DNA of 64,000 nucleotides, from NCBI GenBank assembly GCA_964346985.1, contig CAYFWW010000026.1, positions 690-64,689 of the forward strand, given 5' to 3'. Numbering within the stretch: position 1 is the first letter of the stretch; each line of letters begins with the position of its first letter. Positions 41,637-64,000 of the stretch are shown piece after piece. The notes under the pieces were generated by a model that saw nothing but the letters and a program-made list of their open reading frames with translations, had not been told where the DNA came from and ran no database searches. This stretch comes from an uncultured Actinomycetota bacterium (lineage in GTDB: Bacteria > Actinomycetota > Aquicultoria > CAYFWW01). Position numbers and translations under genes: made by a program.

Positions 41637-42056
41637 ATGATATATAAAAACATAAAAATAATTATATTTATATCTATTTTGGTTCTAGCTGCAATTTTTT
41701 CTTTTTCTTGTGCAGGCGGAGGCTCGGAAACTGATTCAAAAGGTGCTCATGATAGGTATCTGGATGCTCCACCCAAGAAAGGAATACCGACCGTTATAGA
41801 GTTTTACGCTGATTGGTGAGAAACTTGCCGCAAGATGATACCTGTCGTGAACAGTGCGATAGAAAAATATGAGAATGAAGTCCATTTTCGAATAGTTGAT
41901 ATAGATAACTCAAAAAACAAAGCTGAGATGGATCAATATCAAGTTTCAGTCATACCTTATTTTATATTTATTGATAAAGACGGAGAGATAATTGATAAAA
42001 GAATCGGGTATATAGCACAGCAAGAATTTTTTAAATTAATTGATCAGATAAAGTAA
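41637..42056 (+). CDS. thioredoxin-fold lipoprotein, selenocysteine-containing (UxxC; Sec codon TGA 41817-41819)
   Basis: Track ORFs 41637-41819 and 41835-42056 are in the same frame. The TGA sits exactly at the first Cys position of the redox motif FYADW-U-ETC. Lipobox FSFSC. cis-Pro IPYF. Confidence 0.8.
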
Positions 42057-42186
42057 TCTTCGAATAGCAACCACTCTTAAATTTGATTTAAAGGCTTTAT
42101 TTTGCTGCTTACATATATTGAGGCGGAATAAATTCAGAAGGATGAAAATTATATAAATAAAGAATTATTTGGAGGTGAGAATAACA

Positions 42187-42438
42187 TTGGGAAAAGATGT
42201 TTTAATCTATACAACTCCATCATGACCTTACTGTCATATGGCCAAGGAATGGTTTCAGCAAAACAATGTTGAATATCAGGAAAAAGATGTCTCTGTCGAT
42301 GAGGAAGCCAGAGACGAGCTAATCCGGGAAAGCAATCAAATGGGTGTACCTGTAATTAAGGTAGACTCTGAAATAGTTGTCGGATTTGACAAAAATAGAT
42401 TGGCATCGCTTTTAGAAGTAGGGTCTGAGCAATATTAA
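42187..42438 (+). CDS. glutaredoxin, selenocysteine-containing (UPYC; Sec codon TGA 42223-42225)
   Basis: GGAGGTG RBS (42171-42177) and TTG 42187. Reading through the TGA gives MGKDVLIYTTPS-U-PYC-HMAKEWF..., a canonical Grx CPYC context. VPVIKVD and VGFD motifs lie downstream. Confidence 0.8.
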
Positions 42439-42477: not shown

Positions 42478-43095
42478 ATGAAATTAGTTATCAGCGAGGG
42501 TACTGCTTTTTATATCGGAAATGAGTATGCTGATATCATTCCCGGTAAAGAAAACGGCTTATACTATAAGGATACCAGGTATGTCAGCAAATATATATTA
42601 AAACTAAAAAATAAAAAGCCTGATTTATTAAGCGCAAAACAGATTGATTATTATTCATCATTACATTATCTGACAAACTCAGGTAAAGGTTTACCAAAAG
42701 ATTCAATTGGAATTGTAAGAAGCAGGTATGTTGGAAAAGGTCTTCATGAGGATATTGATATTACTTCCTATAGTGACAATAAACTTGAATTAGATCTTTC
42801 TCTGGAAATTGACTGTGATTTTGCAGATATATTTGAAGTCAAAAGTGAAGAGATTTTTAAAAAAGGTAGTATTGAAAAGAATTCTTCTGAAGAAGAAAGA
42901 AAGATTGAATATGTTTATAAGAGGGGAAACTTCCTTCGAAAAACCAGTATAGAATTTGTTACCAGCCAGCCTATTCAAATTAGGAATAATATAGTATCTT
43001 TTCATTTTTCAATTGAGCCTAAGCAAAGTTGGCATCTATGTATTATTTTTACATTAGGTACAGAAGAAGGAACCGAACCCACAAAATATACCTGA
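42478..43095 (+). CDS. amylo-alpha-1,6-glucosidase family, N-terminal (GDE_N-like) segment ending at an in-frame TGA
   Basis: Same frame as 43108-44577. Only TGA plus 4 codons separate them. No RBS before the ATG at 43108. Confidence 0.6.
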   Translation: MKLVISEGTAFYIGNEYADIIPGKENGLYYKDTRYVSKYILKLKNKKPDLLSAKQIDYYSSLHYLTNSGKGLPKDSIGIVRSRYVGKGLHEDIDITSYSDNKLELDLSLEIDCDFADIFEVKSEEIFKKGSIEKNSSEEERKIEYVYKRGNFLRKTSIEFVTSQPIQIRNNIVSFHFSIEPKQSWHLCIIFTLGTEEGTEPTKYT

Positions 43096-43107
43096 TATAA
43101 CTTCAAT

Positions 43108-44577
43108 ATGGGATCTGGTTTGGATTCTAAAGAGATTGAAGAATGGAAAGATAATACGCCTAAAATTAAGAGTGATTTTGATTATTTTGATCATTCTTAT
43201 AATCAATCAATTAAAGATATAGCAGCTCTTAGAATATATGGTTTGGAATTATCGAAGGAGAAAACTATTCCTGCAGCTGGAATCCCTTGGTTTGTTACTA
43301 TATTTGGAAGAGATAGCTTGATAACTGCTTTTCAAACATTAATTCTGGGGACAGAATTATGCCGGGGGGTCCTGGAAACATTAGCTGCTTATCAGGGAAA
43401 AAAAATTGATAACTACCGTGAGGAAGAGCCTGGTAAGATACTTCATGAGATGCGATTTGGCGAGTTAGCAATTTTGCAGGAGATTCCACATACTCCATAT
43501 TATGGAACTATTGATGCCACACCATTGTTTATAATTCTTTTAGGTGAATATTTTGATTGGACCGGAGATTTAAATTTTATTGAAAAGTTGTTAGAGACAG
43601 CAGAGAAGGCACTTAATTGGATGGATAATTATGGAGATATGGATGGAGACGGCTACCTAGAATATCAAAGGAAGACAGATAAAGGCTTAATTAATCAAGG
43701 CTGGAAAGATTCAGGAAACGCTTTGGTGTACGCGGACGGCAAATTAGCTGAACCTCCTATTGCTCTGTGTGAAGTTCAGGGCTATGTTTATCTGGCTAAG
43801 AAAAAATTAGCTCGAATCTACGACAGTTTGAACCGGTCAGAAGAGGCCAAAAAACTAAGGGATGAAGCTGAAAAATTAAAGCTAAGGTTTAACCATGATT
43901 TTTTCCTTGAAGATGAGCAATTCTTTGCTATGGCCTTAGATGGGAATAAGAAAAGAGTTGACGCAATCACTTCAAATGCCGGCCAGTTATTATTTTCTGG
44001 CATAGTTACAGAAAAAAAAGCTGAAAAAATCAAGGATAGATTATTTAAGGAAGATATATATTCCGGTTGGGGCATAAGGACAATGAGTATGTTAAATAAG
44101 GGGTATAATCCAATCAGTTATCATAACGGTTCAGTCTGGCCTCATGATAATTCAATCATCGCCGCTGGCTTAAGGTTATATGGGTTTTATCATGAAGCAG
44201 CTGAGATTTGCCAAAATATGCTTGAAGCATCCTCTTTTTTTAATAATTTTCGCCTACCTGAATTATTCTGTGGATTTGAGAAAGGCAATTATGTTTTCCC
44301 TGTCGAATATCCAACAAGTTCAAGCCCTCAGGCTTGGGCTTCAGGTTCGATCTCTCTTTTTTTAACTACTATACTGGGTTTAAAACCCAGGCTTTCAGAG
44401 AATAAGGTTTTCCTCAAACCGTATTTGCCGGCAAATATGAAAAACCTGTTTTTAAGAAATTTAAAAATAGGGCCAAATATTTTGGATATAGAAACCTCCA
44501 GGATAGGGGAAGAGACTGATATAAGTGTTGATGTGGTAAGTGGTGATGTTGAAGTCATTGCTGAACCTGGAAGTTAG
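43108..44577 (+). CDS. amylo-alpha-1,6-glucosidase / glycogen debranching (alpha/alpha)6-barrel catalytic segment
   Basis: WFVTIFGRDSLITA, GKILHEMRFGE, YYGTIDATPLF, NQGWKDS, HNGSVWPHDN. The joined 42478-44577 product would be 699 aa. Confidence 0.75.
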   Translation: MGSGLDSKEIEEWKDNTPKIKSDFDYFDHSYNQSIKDIAALRIYGLELSKEKTIPAAGIPWFVTIFGRDSLITAFQTLILGTELCRGVLETLAAYQGKKIDNYREEEPGKILHEMRFGELAILQEIPHTPYYGTIDATPLFIILLGEYFDWTGDLNFIEKLLETAEKALNWMDNYGDMDGDGYLEYQRKTDKGLINQGWKDSGNALVYADGKLAEPPIALCEVQGYVYLAKKKLARIYDSLNRSEEAKKLRDEAEKLKLRFNHDFFLEDEQFFAMALDGNKKRVDAITSNAGQLLFSGIVTEKKAEKIKDRLFKEDIYSGWGIRTMSMLNKGYNPISYHNGSVWPHDNSIIAAGLRLYGFYHEAAEICQNMLEASSFFNNFRLPELFCGFEKGNYVFPVEYPTSSSPQAWASGSISLFLTTILGLKPRLSENKVFLKPYLPANMKNLFLRNLKIGPNILDIETSRIGEETDISVDVVSGDVEVIAEPGS

Positions 44578-51967: not shown

Positions 51968-52822
51968 TTGGAAATCACTGTATATACCAGGAAAAACTGC
52001 AAACTTTGTCAGGAAGCAATTAGCAAGATAAAAAACTTAAACATTCAATTTGATTTTGACTTAATATTAATTGATATTGATAATTTGGGAAATGCCAAAG
52101 GGGAATACCTTGACAAGATTCCCCTGATCTATATAAATGGACAAGAAGTATTTCGCTACCATTTGGATGATAGAAAGTTGTTGCAGATTCTAATGAATAA
52201 ACCCTTAAATCCTAGAACAAGAATTATTGAAAAGCGCTACTCTCGTTTTGCGCCTTTTTATGACCTATCCGAGTTTATTGTTGAAGAAATTTACTTTAAA
52301 AAATGGCGGGAGAAAATACTTGGCAATCTTAAGGGCGTAAAGATATTAGAAGTAGGAGCCGGGACTGGCAAAAATTTTCCCTACTATCCAGCGGATAAAG
52401 AAGTGACAGCGATCGATATCAGCCTGCCTATGCTGAGAAGAGCTGAAAATAGAATTAGAAGCTCTAAAGCTGTGATAAATTTGGCTATTATGGATGCAGA
52501 GAATCTTGCCTTACCCGATAATTCTTTTGATGCTATTATCACTACCTATGTCTTCTGTTCTGTTCCTGATCCCGTAAGAGGCTTAAAAGAACTTAAACGG
52601 GTTTGTCGGCCAGATGGAAAGATTTACCTTCTGGAGCATGTATTAAGCACCAAGCTATTTATGAAGACCTTTATGAACTGGCTTAATCCTCTTACAGTAA
52701 GCCTGTTTGGATATAATATTAACCGCCGGACGGTTGATAACATTAAAAAAGCTGGCCTTACCATAATTGAAGAAAAAAATCTTAGGTCGGACATATTTAA
52801 GTTTATTATTGCTAAACCATAA
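51968..52822 (+). CDS. glutaredoxin-like (DUF836-type CxxC) domain fused to class I SAM-dependent methyltransferase
   Basis: N-terminus ITVYTRKNCKLCQEA ... IPLIYINGQE. C-terminus ILEVGAGTGKN, DISLPML, FDAIITTYVFCSV, PDGKIYLLEH. Confidence 0.75.
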   Translation: MEITVYTRKNCKLCQEAISKIKNLNIQFDFDLILIDIDNLGNAKGEYLDKIPLIYINGQEVFRYHLDDRKLLQILMNKPLNPRTRIIEKRYSRFAPFYDLSEFIVEEIYFKKWREKILGNLKGVKILEVGAGTGKNFPYYPADKEVTAIDISLPMLRRAENRIRSSKAVINLAIMDAENLALPDNSFDAIITTYVFCSVPDPVRGLKELKRVCRPDGKIYLLEHVLSTKLFMKTFMNWLNPLTVSLFGYNINRRTVDNIKKAGLTIIEEKNLRSDIFKFIIAKP

Positions 52823-58671: not shown

Positions 58672-58682
58672 GGTTGGTTATT

Positions 58683-59372
58683 ATGTCTGTTACCGATTTT
58701 GCAAGTTCATTTCAGTCAAATCCGCTATATGCGATTGTTGCAGCTTTTGTAGCTGGTTTAATTACTAGCCTTGGGCCATGTACTTTTTCCAGGGCGATTG
58801 TATTAATTGGACATATAGCCAGGGAAAAAAATGTAAGTAGGAATAGAGGATTTTTTATATCATTTATTTTTTTAATCGGTTTATTAATTGCCTATGTTCT
58901 TTATGGATTATTCGGTTATTTAGCCAAAAATGTCAATTTGATCAGCACAAATATCTTTTATTTGGCTGGAGTGATTGCTGTATTGATGGGGTTGCATTTT
59001 GCAGAGATAATTAAAATGAGGCTACCGTTAAGTAGCACAAAACTTTTAAAAGCAAGAAATATCTATTCAAAATATCAGGGAACTGGCGGAGGATTGATAA
59101 TGGGCTTTAGCTTTGGGCTAATGCTCTGTCCATGTTGCTTGCCGGGTTTACTGTTTATTATAAGTTTTACTTTTATCCAGGGTAATTTTATCTATGGTTT
59201 ACTGCTTTTATTTGTCTATGTAATCGGACATGGCCTTCCATTACTTGGGATTGGAACATTCAGCGGAGCAATTACCGGACTTAAATCAGTACAGAAATAT
59301 AGTGTTTATGTTAACTTGATAGTTGGAATTTTAATATTCATTATTGGGCTTCTTTTCTTATGGACAGTCTAA
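58683..59372 (+). CDS. CcdA/DsbD-family thiol-disulfide transporter paralogue
   Basis: LGPCTFSRAIVL and LCPCCLPGLLF conserved Cys helices, 6 TM helices. Track start TTG 58674 is an alternative. Confidence 0.7.
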   Translation: MSVTDFASSFQSNPLYAIVAAFVAGLITSLGPCTFSRAIVLIGHIAREKNVSRNRGFFISFIFLIGLLIAYVLYGLFGYLAKNVNLISTNIFYLAGVIAVLMGLHFAEIIKMRLPLSSTKLLKARNIYSKYQGTGGGLIMGFSFGLMLCPCCLPGLLFIISFTFIQGNFIYGLLLLFVYVIGHGLPLLGIGTFSGAITGLKSVQKYSVYVNLIVGILIFIIGLLFLWTV

Positions 59373-61774: not shown

Positions 61775-62854
61775 TTGAATGAGTATTTTATTTCTCTATT
61801 AGAAAGTCGCGGAGTCAGCAGGCGCGATTTTCTTAAATTTTGTGCTAGTATGGCAGCTTTGTGGGGAATCAGCGATACATTTATACCCCAGATTGCAGCT
61901 GCTGTAGAGAAAGCGGTAAAAAAACCGTCGGTAGTCTATCTTGAATTTGCCCGATGCACTGGTTGTACTGAATCGATTATTAAGATTTCAAATCCTTCTA
62001 TAAATCAGCTGGTATTAGATATTCTTTCTTTTGATTATTATGAAACTATAATGGCTCCTGCTGGTGACCAGGCAGAGAAAAGCTTGGAAGACACAATGAA
62101 AGAAGGAGGTTTTGTCTGTTTAATCGACGGGTCAATACCGACTGGCGAAGACGGTATTTTTTACCAACAAAGAGGAAAATCAGCAGAAGAAAAAGTAAGA
62201 GAGGTAACCGATAAAGCTAAAGCTGTCATTGCTGTAGGTACTTGTGCCACTTATGGCGGTATACCTGCAGCTGCTCCTGATCCGACAGAAGCAAAAGGAG
62301 TAGATCAGGTGGTTGATAAGGCAGTTATTAATGTATCTGGATGCCCACCTAATCCGGAATGGGTTGTAGGAACTGTAATTTATTATTTGACTTATAATGA
62401 GATTCCTGAGCTGGATAAATATGGCCGGCCAAAATTCATTTATGGACAAACTATTCATGAAAGATGCCCGCGGCGTTCTTTTTTTGATGAAGGCAAGTTT
62501 GTCGAGGTTCTAGGTTCAAAAGAAGAAGAATTAGGTTATTGTCTGTATAAGTTGGGATGCAAGGGACCAGATACCTTTGCCAACTGTCCAACACAACGTT
62601 GGAATGACAAAATTAACTGGTGTATTGGTTCTGGTCAGTGCATAGGTTGCACAGAACCGGATTTCTGGGACAGATTTGCCGGTTTTTATAAACCCCTGGA
62701 TGAAGTTAATGTGGCAGGAGTAAGGACAAACTCTGACACCATTGGGAAAGTTCTTGGTGGAGCTGCGGCAGTAGGCATAGGAGCCCATTTTATTGGGCAG
62801 GCGGCAACAGGCAGGCTTGGAAAAGGTGGTCCGAAAAAGGGAGGTGAAGAATAA
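61775..62854 (+). CDS. [NiFe] hydrogenase small subunit, Tat-exported (group 1-like)
   Basis: Twin-arginine SRRDFLKF. Cluster motifs CTGCTES, GTCATYGG, GCPPNP, HERCPR, CLYKLGCKGPDTFANCP, NWCIGSGQCIGCTEPDFWD. GGGAGGTG RBS then TTG 61775. The track start GTG 61766 lies inside the RBS. Confidence 0.9.
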   Translation: MNEYFISLLESRGVSRRDFLKFCASMAALWGISDTFIPQIAAAVEKAVKKPSVVYLEFARCTGCTESIIKISNPSINQLVLDILSFDYYETIMAPAGDQAEKSLEDTMKEGGFVCLIDGSIPTGEDGIFYQQRGKSAEEKVREVTDKAKAVIAVGTCATYGGIPAAAPDPTEAKGVDQVVDKAVINVSGCPPNPEWVVGTVIYYLTYNEIPELDKYGRPKFIYGQTIHERCPRRSFFDEGKFVEVLGSKEEELGYCLYKLGCKGPDTFANCPTQRWNDKINWCIGSGQCIGCTEPDFWDRFAGFYKPLDEVNVAGVRTNSDTIGKVLGGAAAVGIGAHFIGQAATGRLGKGGPKKGGEE

Positions 62855-64000
62855 TGGCTGAGAGAGTAGTTGTTGATCCTGTAACCCGGATTGAAGGAAG
62901 TCTAAAAATTGAAGTTGAGATAGAAAATGGAAAGGTCAAAGAGGCATGGTCATCATGTCAGCTTTTTCGAGGTATTGAGATTATTTTAAAAGGAAGAGAT
63001 CCTCGTGATGCCTGGCATATAACCCAGAGAATATGCGGCGTCTGTCCTGAACCGCATGGAACAGCCTCGATTCTAAGCATGGAAGATTCTTTTGATGTAA
63101 GGCCGCCTGAAGCCGGACGAATTATCCGAAATCTATTACTGGGAAGCAATTATCTACATTCGCACATTCTTCACTTCTATCATTTAACGGCTCTTGATTT
63201 TGTAGATGTGGTTGATGCTTTAAATGCCAAACCGACTGATTCATATCTTAAAGAGGTTCATGCCAAATTGAATTCTTATGTGGAGGCAGGCCAGTTAGGG
63301 CCATTTGCCAATGGTTATTGGGGCCATCCGCAATATAAGTTGCCATCTGAAGTAAATTTACTTGCAGTAGCTCATTATCTTGAGGCTCTTCAGATGCAGG
63401 CTAAAGCTTCCAATATGGAAGCAATCTTCGGTGGAATACAACCTCATCAAAAAGGAATGGTTGCGGGGGGAGTAGCCGGAAGGCCTACCCTAAACGATTT
63501 GAAAGAGTTCAAGTACCGCCTCCATGAAGTTGCTGATTGGATAGAAAATGTATATTTGCAAGATGTTCTAGCGGTTGCTCCTTTCTATCTTGATTGGGCA
63601 GCAATTGGAGGAGGTTATGCTAATTTCCATTCTTTTGGAGTCTTTCCTGATAAATCATGGGATCCGGTCAAGCAATTATTGCCCCGTGGTGCTATCCTCG
63701 ATGGCAAGATTACAGAAGTTATGGACAACAAACCGGAAGAGATTACTGAATATGTAAAATATGCCTGGTTTACAGATGAATCAGGAGGCATGAATCCTAA
63801 AGATGGCAAGACTGAACCTGATTATACCGGTTATGATGTCAAAGATAAGTACACCTGGTCTAAAGCGCCTCGATGGAAAGACAAACCAGTAGAAGCTGGC
63901 CCCTTAGCCCGTATGGCTGTTGCCTATGGCCGGGGGGATAAAGTTGCTGTTGAACTAATTGACTCTACCTTAAAAGCCCTTGGCGTCGAAGGTAAACCTG
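62854..64000 (+). CDS. [NiFe] hydrogenase large subunit, 3'-truncated at window edge (absent from ORF track)
   Basis: ATG 62854 overlaps the small-subunit TAA (TAATG). Frame is open to base 64000. VDPVTRIEG, RICGVCPEPH (N-terminal Ni-ligand motif), HFYHL, GGV. Confidence 0.9.
   Translation, partial: MAERVVVDPVTRIEGSLKIEVEIENGKVKEAWSSCQLFRGIEIILKGRDPRDAWHITQRICGVCPEPHGTASILSMEDSFDVRPPEAGRIIRNLLLGSNYLHSHILHFYHLTALDFVDVVDALNAKPTDSYLKEVHAKLNSYVEAGQLGPFANGYWGHPQYKLPSEVNLLAVAHYLEALQMQAKASNMEAIFGGIQPHQKGMVAGGVAGRPTLNDLKEFKYRLHEVADWIENVYLQDVLAVAPFYLDWAAIGGGYANFHSFGVFPDKSWDPVKQLLPRGAILDGKITEVMDNKPEEITEYVKYAWFTDESGGMNPKDGKTEPDYTGYDVKDKYTWSKAPRWKDKPVEAGPLARMAVAYGRGDKVAVELIDSTLKALGVEGKP

What the first reader, a model, noticed from the sequence alone, without database searches (positions are those of the whole stretch)
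42187..42438. Selenocysteine glutaredoxin (UPYC) whose N-terminus is missed by the ORF track
The track starts this gene at ATG 42238. A strong GGAGGTG RBS (42171-42177) precedes an in-frame TTG at 42187. Reading from there gives MGKDVLIYTTPS-[TGA 42223-42225]-PYC-HMAKEWF...

This is the beta1 strand plus a glutaredoxin CPYC active site, with the first Cys replaced by a TGA codon. The ATG-initiated product would be a glutaredoxin with no active site.

A candidate SECIS hairpin lies at 42240-42254: GGCCA/UGGUU stem including two G-U pairs, loop AGGAA. The loop starts 22 nt after the first base of the UGA.

The gene sits immediately downstream of the Sec-thioredoxin gene.
Basis: partly seen in the sequence, partly recalled or inferred. 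Interest (0 to 1): 0.75.

Follow-up and report, generated by a model that had tools for sequence, protein, structure and literature searches.

The report
Selenocysteine glutaredoxin-like gene, start miscalled
This is a small glutaredoxin-like redox protein whose catalytic cysteine is replaced by a UGA-encoded selenocysteine, so gene callers cut off its first 17 residues; the same kind of protein has already been characterised in Clostridium oremlandii, so it is a new member of a known kind.

Summary
A GGAGGTG ribosome-binding site (42171-42177) lies 9 nt before TTG 42187. The frame then reads MGKDVLIYTTPS-TGA(42223)-PYCHMAKEWF and runs to TAA 42436-42438.

Read through, the 83-residue product covers the whole Pfam Glutaredoxin domain and passes the NCBIfam YruB-family cut-off. 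The ATG-42238 product lacks strand beta1 and the active site.

In all 76 homologous loci retrieved from other lineages the aligned codon is TGT or TGC. A related genome (82% protein identity) keeps the RBS, the start position (as ATG), the N-terminal peptide (7 synonymous, 0 non-synonymous changes in codons 5-12) and the TGA.

TGA is an ordinary stop elsewhere in the window. A same-species contig carries a [NiFeSe] hydrogenase with the canonical DP-UGA-xxCxxH site.

The closest solved structure, C. oremlandii cGrx1 (46% identity), is a native selenoprotein with Sec at the same residue 13 (UPHC).

Weak points: the proposed SECIS hairpin fits the published geometry but is only -3.0 kcal/mol and is not distinctive. 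selA, selB, selC and selD could not be reached.

Verdict: interpretation supported; new member of a known kind.

Side finding: the next gene, a GDE-like glucosidase, has an in-frame TGA aligned to a subfamily-conserved Cys and followed by a good SECIS-like hairpin. It may be a new selenoprotein.

The parts
42171..42177 (+). Shine-Dalgarno site GGAGGTG, 9 nt upstream of the start codon
   Evidence: Read directly from the sequence. The same GGAGGTG with a 9-nt spacer precedes the ATG start in the related genome L002. No purine-rich SD precedes ATG 42238.
42187..42189 (+). True start codon (TTG)
   Evidence: In L002 the aligned codon is ATG, directly preceded by an in-frame TAA, so the start position is fixed by homology.
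42187..42222 (+). N-terminal coding segment MGKDVLIYTTPS (strand beta1), missed by ORF callers
   Evidence: It aligns to the xxVxIYTTP[ST] segment of Cys-form homologues. Between the window and L002, codons 5-12 carry 7 synonymous and 0 non-synonymous changes. The Pfam Glutaredoxin match extends to model position 1 only when this segment is included.
42223..42225 (+). In-frame UGA, inferred selenocysteine codon (residue 13, motif U-P-Y-C)
   Evidence: It aligns to TGT/TGC (Cys) in all 76 motif matches from other lineages. It is conserved in L001-L004. The same residue is Sec in the native selenoprotein cGrx1, PDB 7C10.
42232..42261 (+). 30-nt block identical between the window and the related genome (codons 16-25, CHMAKEWFQQ); likely SelB-binding/SECIS region
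   Evidence: All 8 degenerate codons in this block are unchanged, against 33 of 62 changed over the whole gene. Hypergeometric p = 0.0013; permutation p for the longest unchanged run = 0.043.
42240..42254 (+). Candidate SECIS upper hairpin GGCCA / AGGAA / UGGUU
   Evidence: It has a 5-bp stem, a 5-nt loop with G at loop position 2, and 19 nt between the UGA and the loop, which fits criteria i-iii of the bSECIS model. It is only -3.0 kcal/mol, so criterion iv is not met, and it is not distinctive. The UGG (Trp) codon that supplies two of the pairs occurs only in the Sec forms: 2 of 69 distinct sequences, with F or Y in the rest.
42226..42438 (+). Rest of the glutaredoxin-like coding sequence, through TAA 42436-42438
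   Evidence: Gene callers report this part alone as a 66-residue product starting at ATG 42238 (P0001).
41637..42056 (+). Upstream neighbour: predicted exported lipoprotein thioredoxin with W-UGA(41817-41819)-E-T-C
   Evidence: The TGA is conserved in L002.
42478..44577 (+). Downstream neighbour: GDE-like amylo-alpha-1,6-glucosidase in one frame, interrupted by TGA 43093-43095 (candidate Sec codon)
   Evidence: see the noticed-in-passing item.

Best explanation
The gene at 42187-42438 encodes an 83-residue cytoplasmic thioredoxin-fold oxidoreductase of the YruB/glutaredoxin-like family. Its active site is U13-P-Y-C16.

Shown from the sequence and comparisons:
- Translation starts at TTG 42187, behind a strong SD.
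- The UGA at codon 13 lies on the catalytic Cys column.

Inferred:
- The UGA is decoded as selenocysteine by Sec-tRNA(Sec) and SelB.
- SelB is recruited by an mRNA element in the roughly 30 nt that begin 9 nt after the UGA. This element includes the small hairpin at 42240-42254.
- The selenolate attacks substrate disulfides or selenylsulfides, and C16 resolves the mixed intermediate. This is the mechanism described for the homologous native selenoprotein cGrx1 of C. oremlandii, which reduces the selenoprotein MsrA.

Unknown: the reductant (glutathione or a thioredoxin reductase) and the substrate.
For: - Reading through the TGA gives a full Pfam Glutaredoxin match (residues 5-64 to model positions 1-60 of 60, 72.5 bits). 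The ATG-42238 product matches only positions 14-60 (41.9 bits).
- NCBIfam TIGR02196 (YruB family) scores 95.7 bits against a cut-off of 88.55.
- Cys-form homologues read IYTTP[ST]CxYC[HK]MAK across the TGA. The aligned codon is TGY in 76 of 76 motif matches from other lineages.
- The related genome L002 (82% identity over the read-through protein) keeps the SD, the spacing, the start, the N-terminal peptide and the TGA. Codons 5-12 carry only synonymous changes.
- Same-species contigs keep the TGA, and L003 has a synonymous TCA-to-TCC change directly before it.
- TGA ends 9 of 53 long ORFs. For example, the TauE Pfam match runs to the end of its model one residue before a TGA stop. Codes 4 and 25 are therefore excluded.
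- The 30 nt downstream of the UGA are invariant at all 8 degenerate codons (p = 0.0013).
- Same-species contig L015 (99% identical over the window's hydrogenase fragment) reads VVHGFDP-TGA-IACAVHV, the canonical [NiFeSe] Sec site.
- The adjacent thioredoxin also has TGA at its first CxxC Cys, and this too is conserved in L002.
- PDB 7C10 (cGrx1) is the best solved match (E = 1.2e-20, 46% identity) and is a native selenoprotein with a UPxC motif.
- Sec-Grx (PF00462, UxxC) is on the list of verified prokaryotic selenoproteins.
Against: - No selA, selB or selD among the 30 ORFs scanned, which include every ORF of 281 residues or more except two (a 305-aa ORF without a Pfam hit and a GGDEF protein, by the annotation of the syntenic locus L003).
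- No tRNA gene, including tRNA-Sec, in the window or in the same-lineage loci.
- The candidate SECIS is weak: -3.0 kcal/mol for the hairpin and -5.2 for the 45-nt MFE, against the model's threshold of -7.5 or lower.
- In the 60-nt MFE the hairpin is replaced by other pairings, and the z-score is only -1.06.
- Cys-form homologues fold as well or better at the same place. The Sec forms rank 32 and 43 of 67.
- Only two distinct Sec-form sequences exist, so covariation cannot be tested.
- There is no expression or selenium-incorporation data.
Confidence: 0.85

Rival explanations
1. The TGA is a true stop (nonsense mutation or decaying gene). Either nothing functional is made, or a truncated 66-residue protein is translated from ATG 42238.
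For: Gene callers produce exactly this 66-residue product (P0001, P0002, P0007). The truncated product still matches Pfam positions 14-60. The SECIS candidate is weak.
Against: The truncated product lacks strand beta1 and both active-site residues. No SD precedes ATG 42238, whereas a strong conserved SD precedes TTG 42187. The 'untranslated' N-terminal peptide is under purifying selection (7 synonymous, 0 non-synonymous changes), and the TGA is kept across species that differ at about half of the synonymous sites. Two further genes in the same species show the same TGA-for-catalytic-Cys pattern: the thioredoxin and the [NiFeSe] hydrogenase.
Confidence: 0.05
2. The UGA is read through, but not as selenocysteine. 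It could be read by near-cognate insertion of Trp or Cys, or under a reassigned genetic code (UGA = Trp or Gly).
For: The Sec machinery was not found in the sequence available. The SECIS criteria are only partly met.
Against: TGA terminates 9 of 53 long ORFs at positions where family models end, so the code is not reassigned. The aligned residue is Cys in every homologue, never Trp or Gly. The same species has UGA at the hallmark Sec position of a [NiFeSe] hydrogenase. The closest characterised homologue uses Sec at this residue.
Confidence: 0.08
3. The TGA is a sequencing or assembly error for TGT or TGC.
For: A single base separates TGA from TGT/TGC.
Against: The TGA is seen in the window and in four other assemblies from different runs and projects: Logan ERR2564001, ERR14940462 and ERR14940463, and NCBI GCA_964346885.1.
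Confidence: 0.01

Closest known systems
Clostridium (Alkaliphilus) oremlandii glutaredoxin-1, cGrx1 (PDB 7C10/7C12/7C13): a native selenoprotein and the reductant of the selenoprotein MsrA
   Same: It is the best solved match: E = 1.2e-20, 46% identity over 76 residues, with the same length class. Sec lies at the same residue 13 in a U-P-x-C16 motif, following a beta1 strand xxVxxYT. Both come from low-GC anaerobes.
   Different: The motif is UPYC here and UPHC there. No MsrA gene is nearby. The neighbours here are a Sec-thioredoxin lipoprotein and a GDE-like glucosidase. The source is an unidentified, uncultured lineage. No biochemical data exist for this protein.
YruB-family glutaredoxin-like proteins (NCBIfam TIGR02196), Cys forms, mostly from Patescibacteria/CPR and other uncultured groups
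   Same: The score is above the family cut-off (95.7 against 88.55). Identity is 57-66% with conserved IYTTPxCxYCxMAK and GQMGVPVI motifs.
   Different: All family members retrieved from outside this lineage have TGT/TGC (Cys) at the first active-site position. This lineage has UGA, plus a Trp codon nine codons downstream that the others lack.
Sec-glutaredoxin entry of the prokaryotic selenoprotein catalogue (PF00462, UxxC, example WP_010943784.1)
   Same: Same Pfam family and the same UxxC motif class.
   Different: The example sequence was not retrieved here, so the degree of relatedness is untested.
NrdH-redoxin
   Same: It is a small CxxC thioredoxin-fold protein. PDB NrdH chains match at E of about 1e-7 to 1e-8.
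   Different: TIGR02194 scores 53.2 against a cut-off of 85.75. No ribonucleotide reductase genes are nearby.
Uxx-star family glutaredoxin-like (seleno)proteins (NF041212 and families 1-3)
   Same: There is a borderline HMM score of 66.7 against a cut-off of 66. A 60%-identical Cys-form homologue is named this way by NCBI (P0016).
   Different: The YruB model scores better. The gene ends ...GSEQY-TAA with no second TGA near the C-terminus. If, as the name suggests, the family is defined by a C-terminal U-x-x-stop, that feature is absent. The definition is my inference, not something I checked.

Membership tests
Glutaredoxin fold (PF00462) / YruB-family glutaredoxin-like protein (TIGR02196) | Profile score above the curated cut-off over the whole domain | tested here: met
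   PF00462 scores 72.5 bits (cut-off 22.9), model positions 1-60 of 60. TIGR02196 scores 95.7 bits (cut-off 88.55), positions 2-74 of 74, with U modelled as C.
Glutaredoxin fold (PF00462) / YruB-family glutaredoxin-like protein (TIGR02196) | C-x-x-C type active site directly after strand beta1, and the conserved cis-Pro motif (V-P) | tested here: met
   U13-P-Y-C16 aligns to the CPYC/CxYC of homologues, and GVPVI (residues 53-57) is conserved.
Glutaredoxin fold (PF00462) / YruB-family glutaredoxin-like protein (TIGR02196) | Glutathione-dependent disulfide reductase activity | not testable with these tools
The reductant of the YruB family is unknown, according to my recollection of the family description.
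Bacterial selenoprotein (UGA decoded as Sec via SelB and a SECIS element) | In-frame UGA aligned to Cys in homologues, with coding conservation on both sides | tested here: met
   76 of 76 motif matches from other lineages have TGY at the aligned codon. The upstream peptide shows 7 synonymous and 0 non-synonymous changes between two species.
Bacterial selenoprotein (UGA decoded as Sec via SelB and a SECIS element) | bSECIS model: 3-9 nt apical loop, 4-16 bp upper stem, G in the first two loop positions, 16-37 nt from the UGA, MFE of -7.5 kcal/mol or lower (PMC13188914, Fig. 2A) | tested here: inconclusive
   The geometric criteria are met: 5-nt loop AGGAA, 5-bp stem, 19-nt spacing. The energy criterion is not met: -3.0 kcal/mol for the hairpin, -5.2 for the 45-nt MFE in the window and -7.0 in L002. 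The hairpin is not distinctive, but the region is invariant at synonymous sites.
Bacterial selenoprotein (UGA decoded as Sec via SelB and a SECIS element) | selA, selB, selC (tRNA-Sec) and selD present in the genome | not testable with these tools
   They are not in the 64-kb window or in the same-lineage loci. The species is absent from the genome collection that was scanned. Indirect support comes from a canonical [NiFeSe] hydrogenase Sec codon in the same species.
Bacterial selenoprotein (UGA decoded as Sec via SelB and a SECIS element) | Selenium demonstrated in the protein | not testable with these tools
   This needs 75Se labelling or mass spectrometry.
Uxx-star glutaredoxin-like (seleno)protein (NF041212) | HMM score above the cut-off | tested here: inconclusive
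   66.7 bits against a cut-off of 66, outscored by TIGR02196.
Uxx-star glutaredoxin-like (seleno)protein (NF041212) | Sec three residues before the stop codon (U-x-x-stop); definition inferred from the name, not verified | tested here: not met
   The C-terminus is ...EVGSEQY followed by TAA, with no TGA nearby.

The most novel reading that the evidence does not exclude
The Sec-glutaredoxin is the middle gene of a run of three consecutive UGA-recoded genes: Sec-thioredoxin lipoprotein, Sec-glutaredoxin and a GDE-like amylo-alpha-1,6-glucosidase.

The third would be a selenoprotein family absent from the 2026 catalogue. Its TGA (43093) replaces the second Cys of a subfamily-specific, co-occurring Cys pair (WHxC ... 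Y[RT]CxxF), and a hairpin that fits the bSECIS model follows it.

The glutaredoxin, 40 nt upstream and syntenic in the related genome, would be the dedicated reductant of that Cys-Sec redox switch on a glycogen-degrading enzyme.
Probability: 0.25. Interest if true: 0.65.

Novelty: new member of a known kind. Interest (0 to 1): 0.3.

Why it matters
For annotation, the gene is systematically miscalled. Three database entries for this lineage hold only the 64-66-residue fragment without an active site, so the organism's redox toolkit and selenoproteome are under-counted. The same holds for the neighbouring thioredoxin and for the hydrogenase.

For biology, it adds a Sec form to the YruB branch of glutaredoxin-like proteins, in an uncultured low-GC anaerobe whose closest Cys-form relatives are mostly from CPR bacteria. 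It also gives a natural Sec/Cys pair for that branch.

The concept is not new. Sec at this residue of a glutaredoxin is already characterised biochemically and structurally.

The more consequential lead is the neighbouring GDE-like gene. If it is confirmed, it would be a new selenoprotein family, and a link between selenium and thiol redox control and glycogen metabolism.

Tried and rejected
**Searches that found nothing useful**
- Rfam found nothing at gathering thresholds over the window. Around the locus at E up to 10 it gave only two chance sRNA hits.
- ARAGORN found no tRNA or tRNA-Sec in the window or in same-lineage loci.
- Pfam scans of 30 ORFs, which include every ORF of 281 residues or more except two (a 305-aa ORF without a Pfam hit and a GGDEF protein, by the annotation of the syntenic locus L003), found no SelA, SelB or SelD.

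**Organism identification failed**
- Cluster look-ups gave no names.
- The genome-contig scan returned only distant Cys forms at 59% identity or less.
- A literature search for the accession numbers gave nothing.

**Wasted or biased searches**
- Two exact-sequence look-ups of the hydrogenase small subunit failed, probably because the called start differs.
- The metagenome scan used a pattern containing Cys (CPYCHMA), so it was biased against finding further Sec forms.
- The last homologue search, with the GDE N-domain, returned only 2 hits because of the word index.

**Structures considered and rejected**
- The strong 11-bp hairpin at +28 to +56 could not be the SECIS. Its loop has no G, it lies at the far edge of the allowed spacing, and it is not conserved in L002.

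**Other negatives**
- The promoter and terminator scan found nothing above shuffled expectation between the thioredoxin and glutaredoxin genes.
- Synteny of the glutaredoxin with Cys-pair GDE genes in distant genomes: 1 of 4 contexts has a YruB-type glutaredoxin two genes away (L097). This is too few to conclude anything.

Full report
**1. The observation**

- GGAGGTG lies at 42171-42177 and TTG at 42187, 9 nt downstream.
- The frame reads M/L-GKDVLIYTTPS, then TGA at 42223-42225, then PYCHMAKEWF... and ends at TAA 42436-42438.
- Mechanical ORF listing reports only the 66-residue piece that starts at ATG 42238.
- The proposed hairpin is GGCCA (42240-42244), AGGAA (42245-42249) and UGGUU (42250-42254), with two G-U pairs.
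- The upstream gene (41637-42056) reads ...EFYADW-TGA-ETCRK, a thioredoxin WCxxC site with TGA for the first Cys. It follows a signal peptide that ends in a lipobox-like FSFSC.

**2. Is the N-terminal extension coding, and what does the TGA stand for?**

With the TGA modelled as Cys, the 83-residue product matches the whole Pfam Glutaredoxin domain (residues 5-64 to model positions 1-60 of 60, 72.5 bits). The ATG-42238 product matches only positions 14-60 (41.9 bits) and lacks strand beta1 and the active site.

NCBIfam places the protein in the YruB family of glutaredoxin-like proteins (TIGR02196, 95.7 bits, cut-off 88.55). It is borderline for NF041212 'Uxx-star' (66.7 against 66) and well below the cut-offs for Grx3 and NrdH.

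Database homologues at 57-66% identity read, for example, KVIIYTTPSCVYCKMTKAFF and KVFSTPSCPYCHMAKEYF. The 12 residues before the TGA and the four-residue motif around it align column for column.

In the loci fetched from genome and metagenome collections, the aligned codon is TGC (41) or TGT (35) in all 76 motif matches from other lineages. It is TGA only in the four contigs of this lineage. One of the two metagenome scan patterns contained Cys, so that scan was biased against finding other Sec forms.

**3. Comparative evidence within the lineage**

Three same-species contigs from other sequencing runs (L001, L003, L004) carry the TGA. L003 has a synonymous TCA-to-TCC change in the codon directly before it.

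A related genome (L002, NCBI assembly GCA_964346885.1; 82% identity over the read-through protein) has the same gene order: NUDIX, DUF72, thioredoxin, glutaredoxin, GDE.
- Its glutaredoxin gene has AAAGGAGGTGG, a 9-nt spacer and ATG. The ATG is preceded by an in-frame TAA, which fixes the start position.
- It then reads MDKNVLIYTTPS-TGA-PYCHMAKEWFQQ.
- Codons 5-12 differ at 7 synonymous sites and at no non-synonymous site. The peptide upstream of the TGA is therefore translated and under purifying selection.
- The thioredoxin TGA is conserved as well.

**4. Genetic code and Sec decoding in this organism**

The window has 35% G+C. TGA ends 9 of its 53 ORFs of 150 residues or more. For the TauE-family gene, the Pfam match reaches the last model position one residue before the TGA. 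TGA is therefore a normal stop, and code 4 or code 25 is excluded.

No tRNA and no Rfam family is found in the window. None of the 30 ORFs scanned is SelA, SelB or SelD. Those 30 include every ORF of 281 residues or more except two, a 305-aa ORF without a Pfam hit and a GGDEF protein.

I could not reach other contigs of the organism. The species is not in the genome collection that was scanned, and no source names it.

There is indirect evidence. The window ends inside a NiFe hydrogenase large-subunit gene that starts at 62854. In a same-species contig (L015, 99% identical) that gene reads ...VVHGFDP-TGA-IACAVHVIEPK..., whereas Cys forms read ...VHSFDPCLACTVHVIHPE.... This is the canonical DPUxxCxxH site of [NiFeSe] hydrogenases. 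The species thus carries UGA at the catalytic Cys position of at least three unrelated redox proteins.

**5. The SECIS candidate**

The published bacterial model requires four things: a 3-9 nt apical loop on a 4-16 bp stem; a G in the first two loop positions; 16-37 nt between the UGA and the loop; and an MFE of -7.5 kcal/mol or lower (PMC13188914).

However:
- It is worth only -3.0 kcal/mol.
- The 45-nt MFE, which contains it, is -5.2 in the window and -7.0 in L002.
- In the 60-nt MFE it is replaced by other pairings, and the z-score against shuffles is -1.06.
- Hairpins of this geometry at -3.0 or better follow 13.5% of random positions in the window.
- The same region of the 67 distinct Cys-form sequences folds on average to -4.7 kcal/mol. 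The two Sec forms rank 32 and 43 of 67.

On structure alone, then, the hairpin proves nothing. Two observations still point to an RNA-level constraint there.
- Codons 16-25 (42232-42261) are identical between the two species. All 8 degenerate codons are unchanged, while 33 of 62 are changed across the gene (hypergeometric p = 0.0013; longest-run permutation p = 0.043).
- The UGG (Trp) codon that pairs with the CC of GCC is found only in the Sec forms. The other 67 distinct sequences have Phe or Tyr at that position.

For comparison, the hairpins after the other UGAs of this species are stronger:

| Gene | Stem / loop / stem | Energy (kcal/mol) |
|---|---|---|
| Hydrogenase | GGUUCA / CGUGAU / UGAACC | -6.8 |
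| Thioredoxin | CUGUCGU / GAACAGU / GCGAUAG | -7.6 |
| GDE-like | UGGGAUCU / GGUUU / GGAUUCUA | -6.4 |

All have G within the first two loop positions.

**6. Comparison with what is known**

Sec-glutaredoxin (PF00462, UxxC) and Sec-thioredoxin are on the list of experimentally verified prokaryotic selenoproteins (PMC13188914).

The best match among solved structures is 7C10, C. oremlandii cGrx1 (E = 1.2e-20, 46% identity over 76 residues). The depositors state that cGrx1 is a native selenoprotein with a U(or C)PXC motif. Its catalytic Sec was replaced by Cys for the structural work, and it is proposed to reduce the selenoprotein MsrA (PMC7642778).

Sec is residue 13 in both proteins. The window's gene is therefore a new member, in a different and unidentified lineage, of a kind that is already characterised.

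**7. Verdict on the finding**

The rivals are unlikely for the reasons given above: a pseudogene or truncated product, read-through as something other than Sec, and an assembly error. What remains open is direct evidence for the Sec machinery and for the SECIS.

**8. Side finding**

The gene 40 nt downstream is a GDE-like amylo-alpha-1,6-glucosidase. It is called as two ORFs: GDE_N_bis at 42478-43095 and GDE_C at 43108-44577. These are one reading frame, interrupted only by TGA 43093-43095 (...TEPTKYT-TGA-YNFNMGSG...). The TGA is present in L003 (checked in the DNA). L001 and L004 have the same split into two ORFs, so the interruption is there too.

- In L002 the aligned codon is TGC (...NPKYT-C-NSFGAP...).
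- In an alignment with 137 representative homologues, all of them single polypeptides of more than 600 residues, that column is Cys in L002 and in nine of the closest representatives (ten sequences). The motif is Y[RT]-C-x-x-F-[GS].
- All ten also carry an upstream WHxC cysteine. Sixteen sequences have only that one, and 112 have neither.
- After the TGA lies a two-tier stem-loop: lower stem CUUCAAU/AUUGAAG, upper stem of 8 bp, loop GGUUU, 21 nt from the UGA. Its energy is -10.9 kcal/mol, and 2% of shuffles fold as well. It meets all four bSECIS criteria.
- L003 has a G-to-A change that turns a U-G pair into U-A.
- The Cys-form sequence of L002 lacks this structure.
- No glycoside hydrolase or debranching enzyme appears in the 2026 selenoprotein catalogue.

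The gene could be a new selenoprotein, or it could be a nonsense-split gene. It deserves its own evaluation.

Noticed in passing
window 42478-44577 (TGA at 43093-43095; hairpin 43101-43141): A GDE-like amylo-alpha-1,6-glucosidase is called as two ORFs but is one frame broken by a single TGA. The TGA aligns to Cys in the related genome L002 and in nine of the nearest representatives, inside a subfamily-specific, co-occurring Cys pair (WHxC ... Y[RT]CxxF). A stem-loop that meets all four bSECIS criteria follows it (-10.9 kcal/mol, loop GGUUU), and a pair-preserving change occurs in L003. This is a candidate new selenoprotein family; the alternative is a nonsense-split gene.
   Followed up: partly
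window 62854-64000 (runs off the end); L015 10001-11596: The NiFe hydrogenase large subunit is a [NiFeSe] type. The same-species contig reads ...VVHGFDP-TGA-IACAVHVIEPKTNEILKFQLR*, with the hairpin GGUUCA/CGUGAU/UGAACC 17 nt after the UGA. Many database homologues of 509-510 residues end at ...FDP and are probably truncated at the same Sec codon.
   Followed up: yes
window 41637-42056 (TGA 41817-41819): The upstream thioredoxin has a signal peptide with a lipobox-like ...FSFSC and a W-UGA-E-T-C active site, so it is a predicted exported Sec-thioredoxin lipoprotein. The TGA is conserved in L002. The window also holds a DsbD/CcdA-type membrane protein (58674-59372), and Ccm cytochrome c maturation genes follow in L015.
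   Followed up: partly
L097 2062-5630: In a distant genome, a Cys-pair GDE homologue (P0372) is followed, after an M50 peptidase gene, by a 79-residue YruB-type glutaredoxin (CPYC). Three other distant contexts show no glutaredoxin. This is a possible but unproven functional link between this glutaredoxin type and the GDE subfamily.
   Followed up: partly
window 51968-52822: A fusion of a Glrx-like (DUF836) domain with a class I methyltransferase. Its redox motif is an ordinary CKLC with no TGA.
   Followed up: yes
L005 382-614 (P0115): A 61-residue 'truncated' glutaredoxin in the protein database is a Cys form (TGT) whose start was simply miscalled. Short length alone therefore does not identify Sec forms.
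   Followed up: yes
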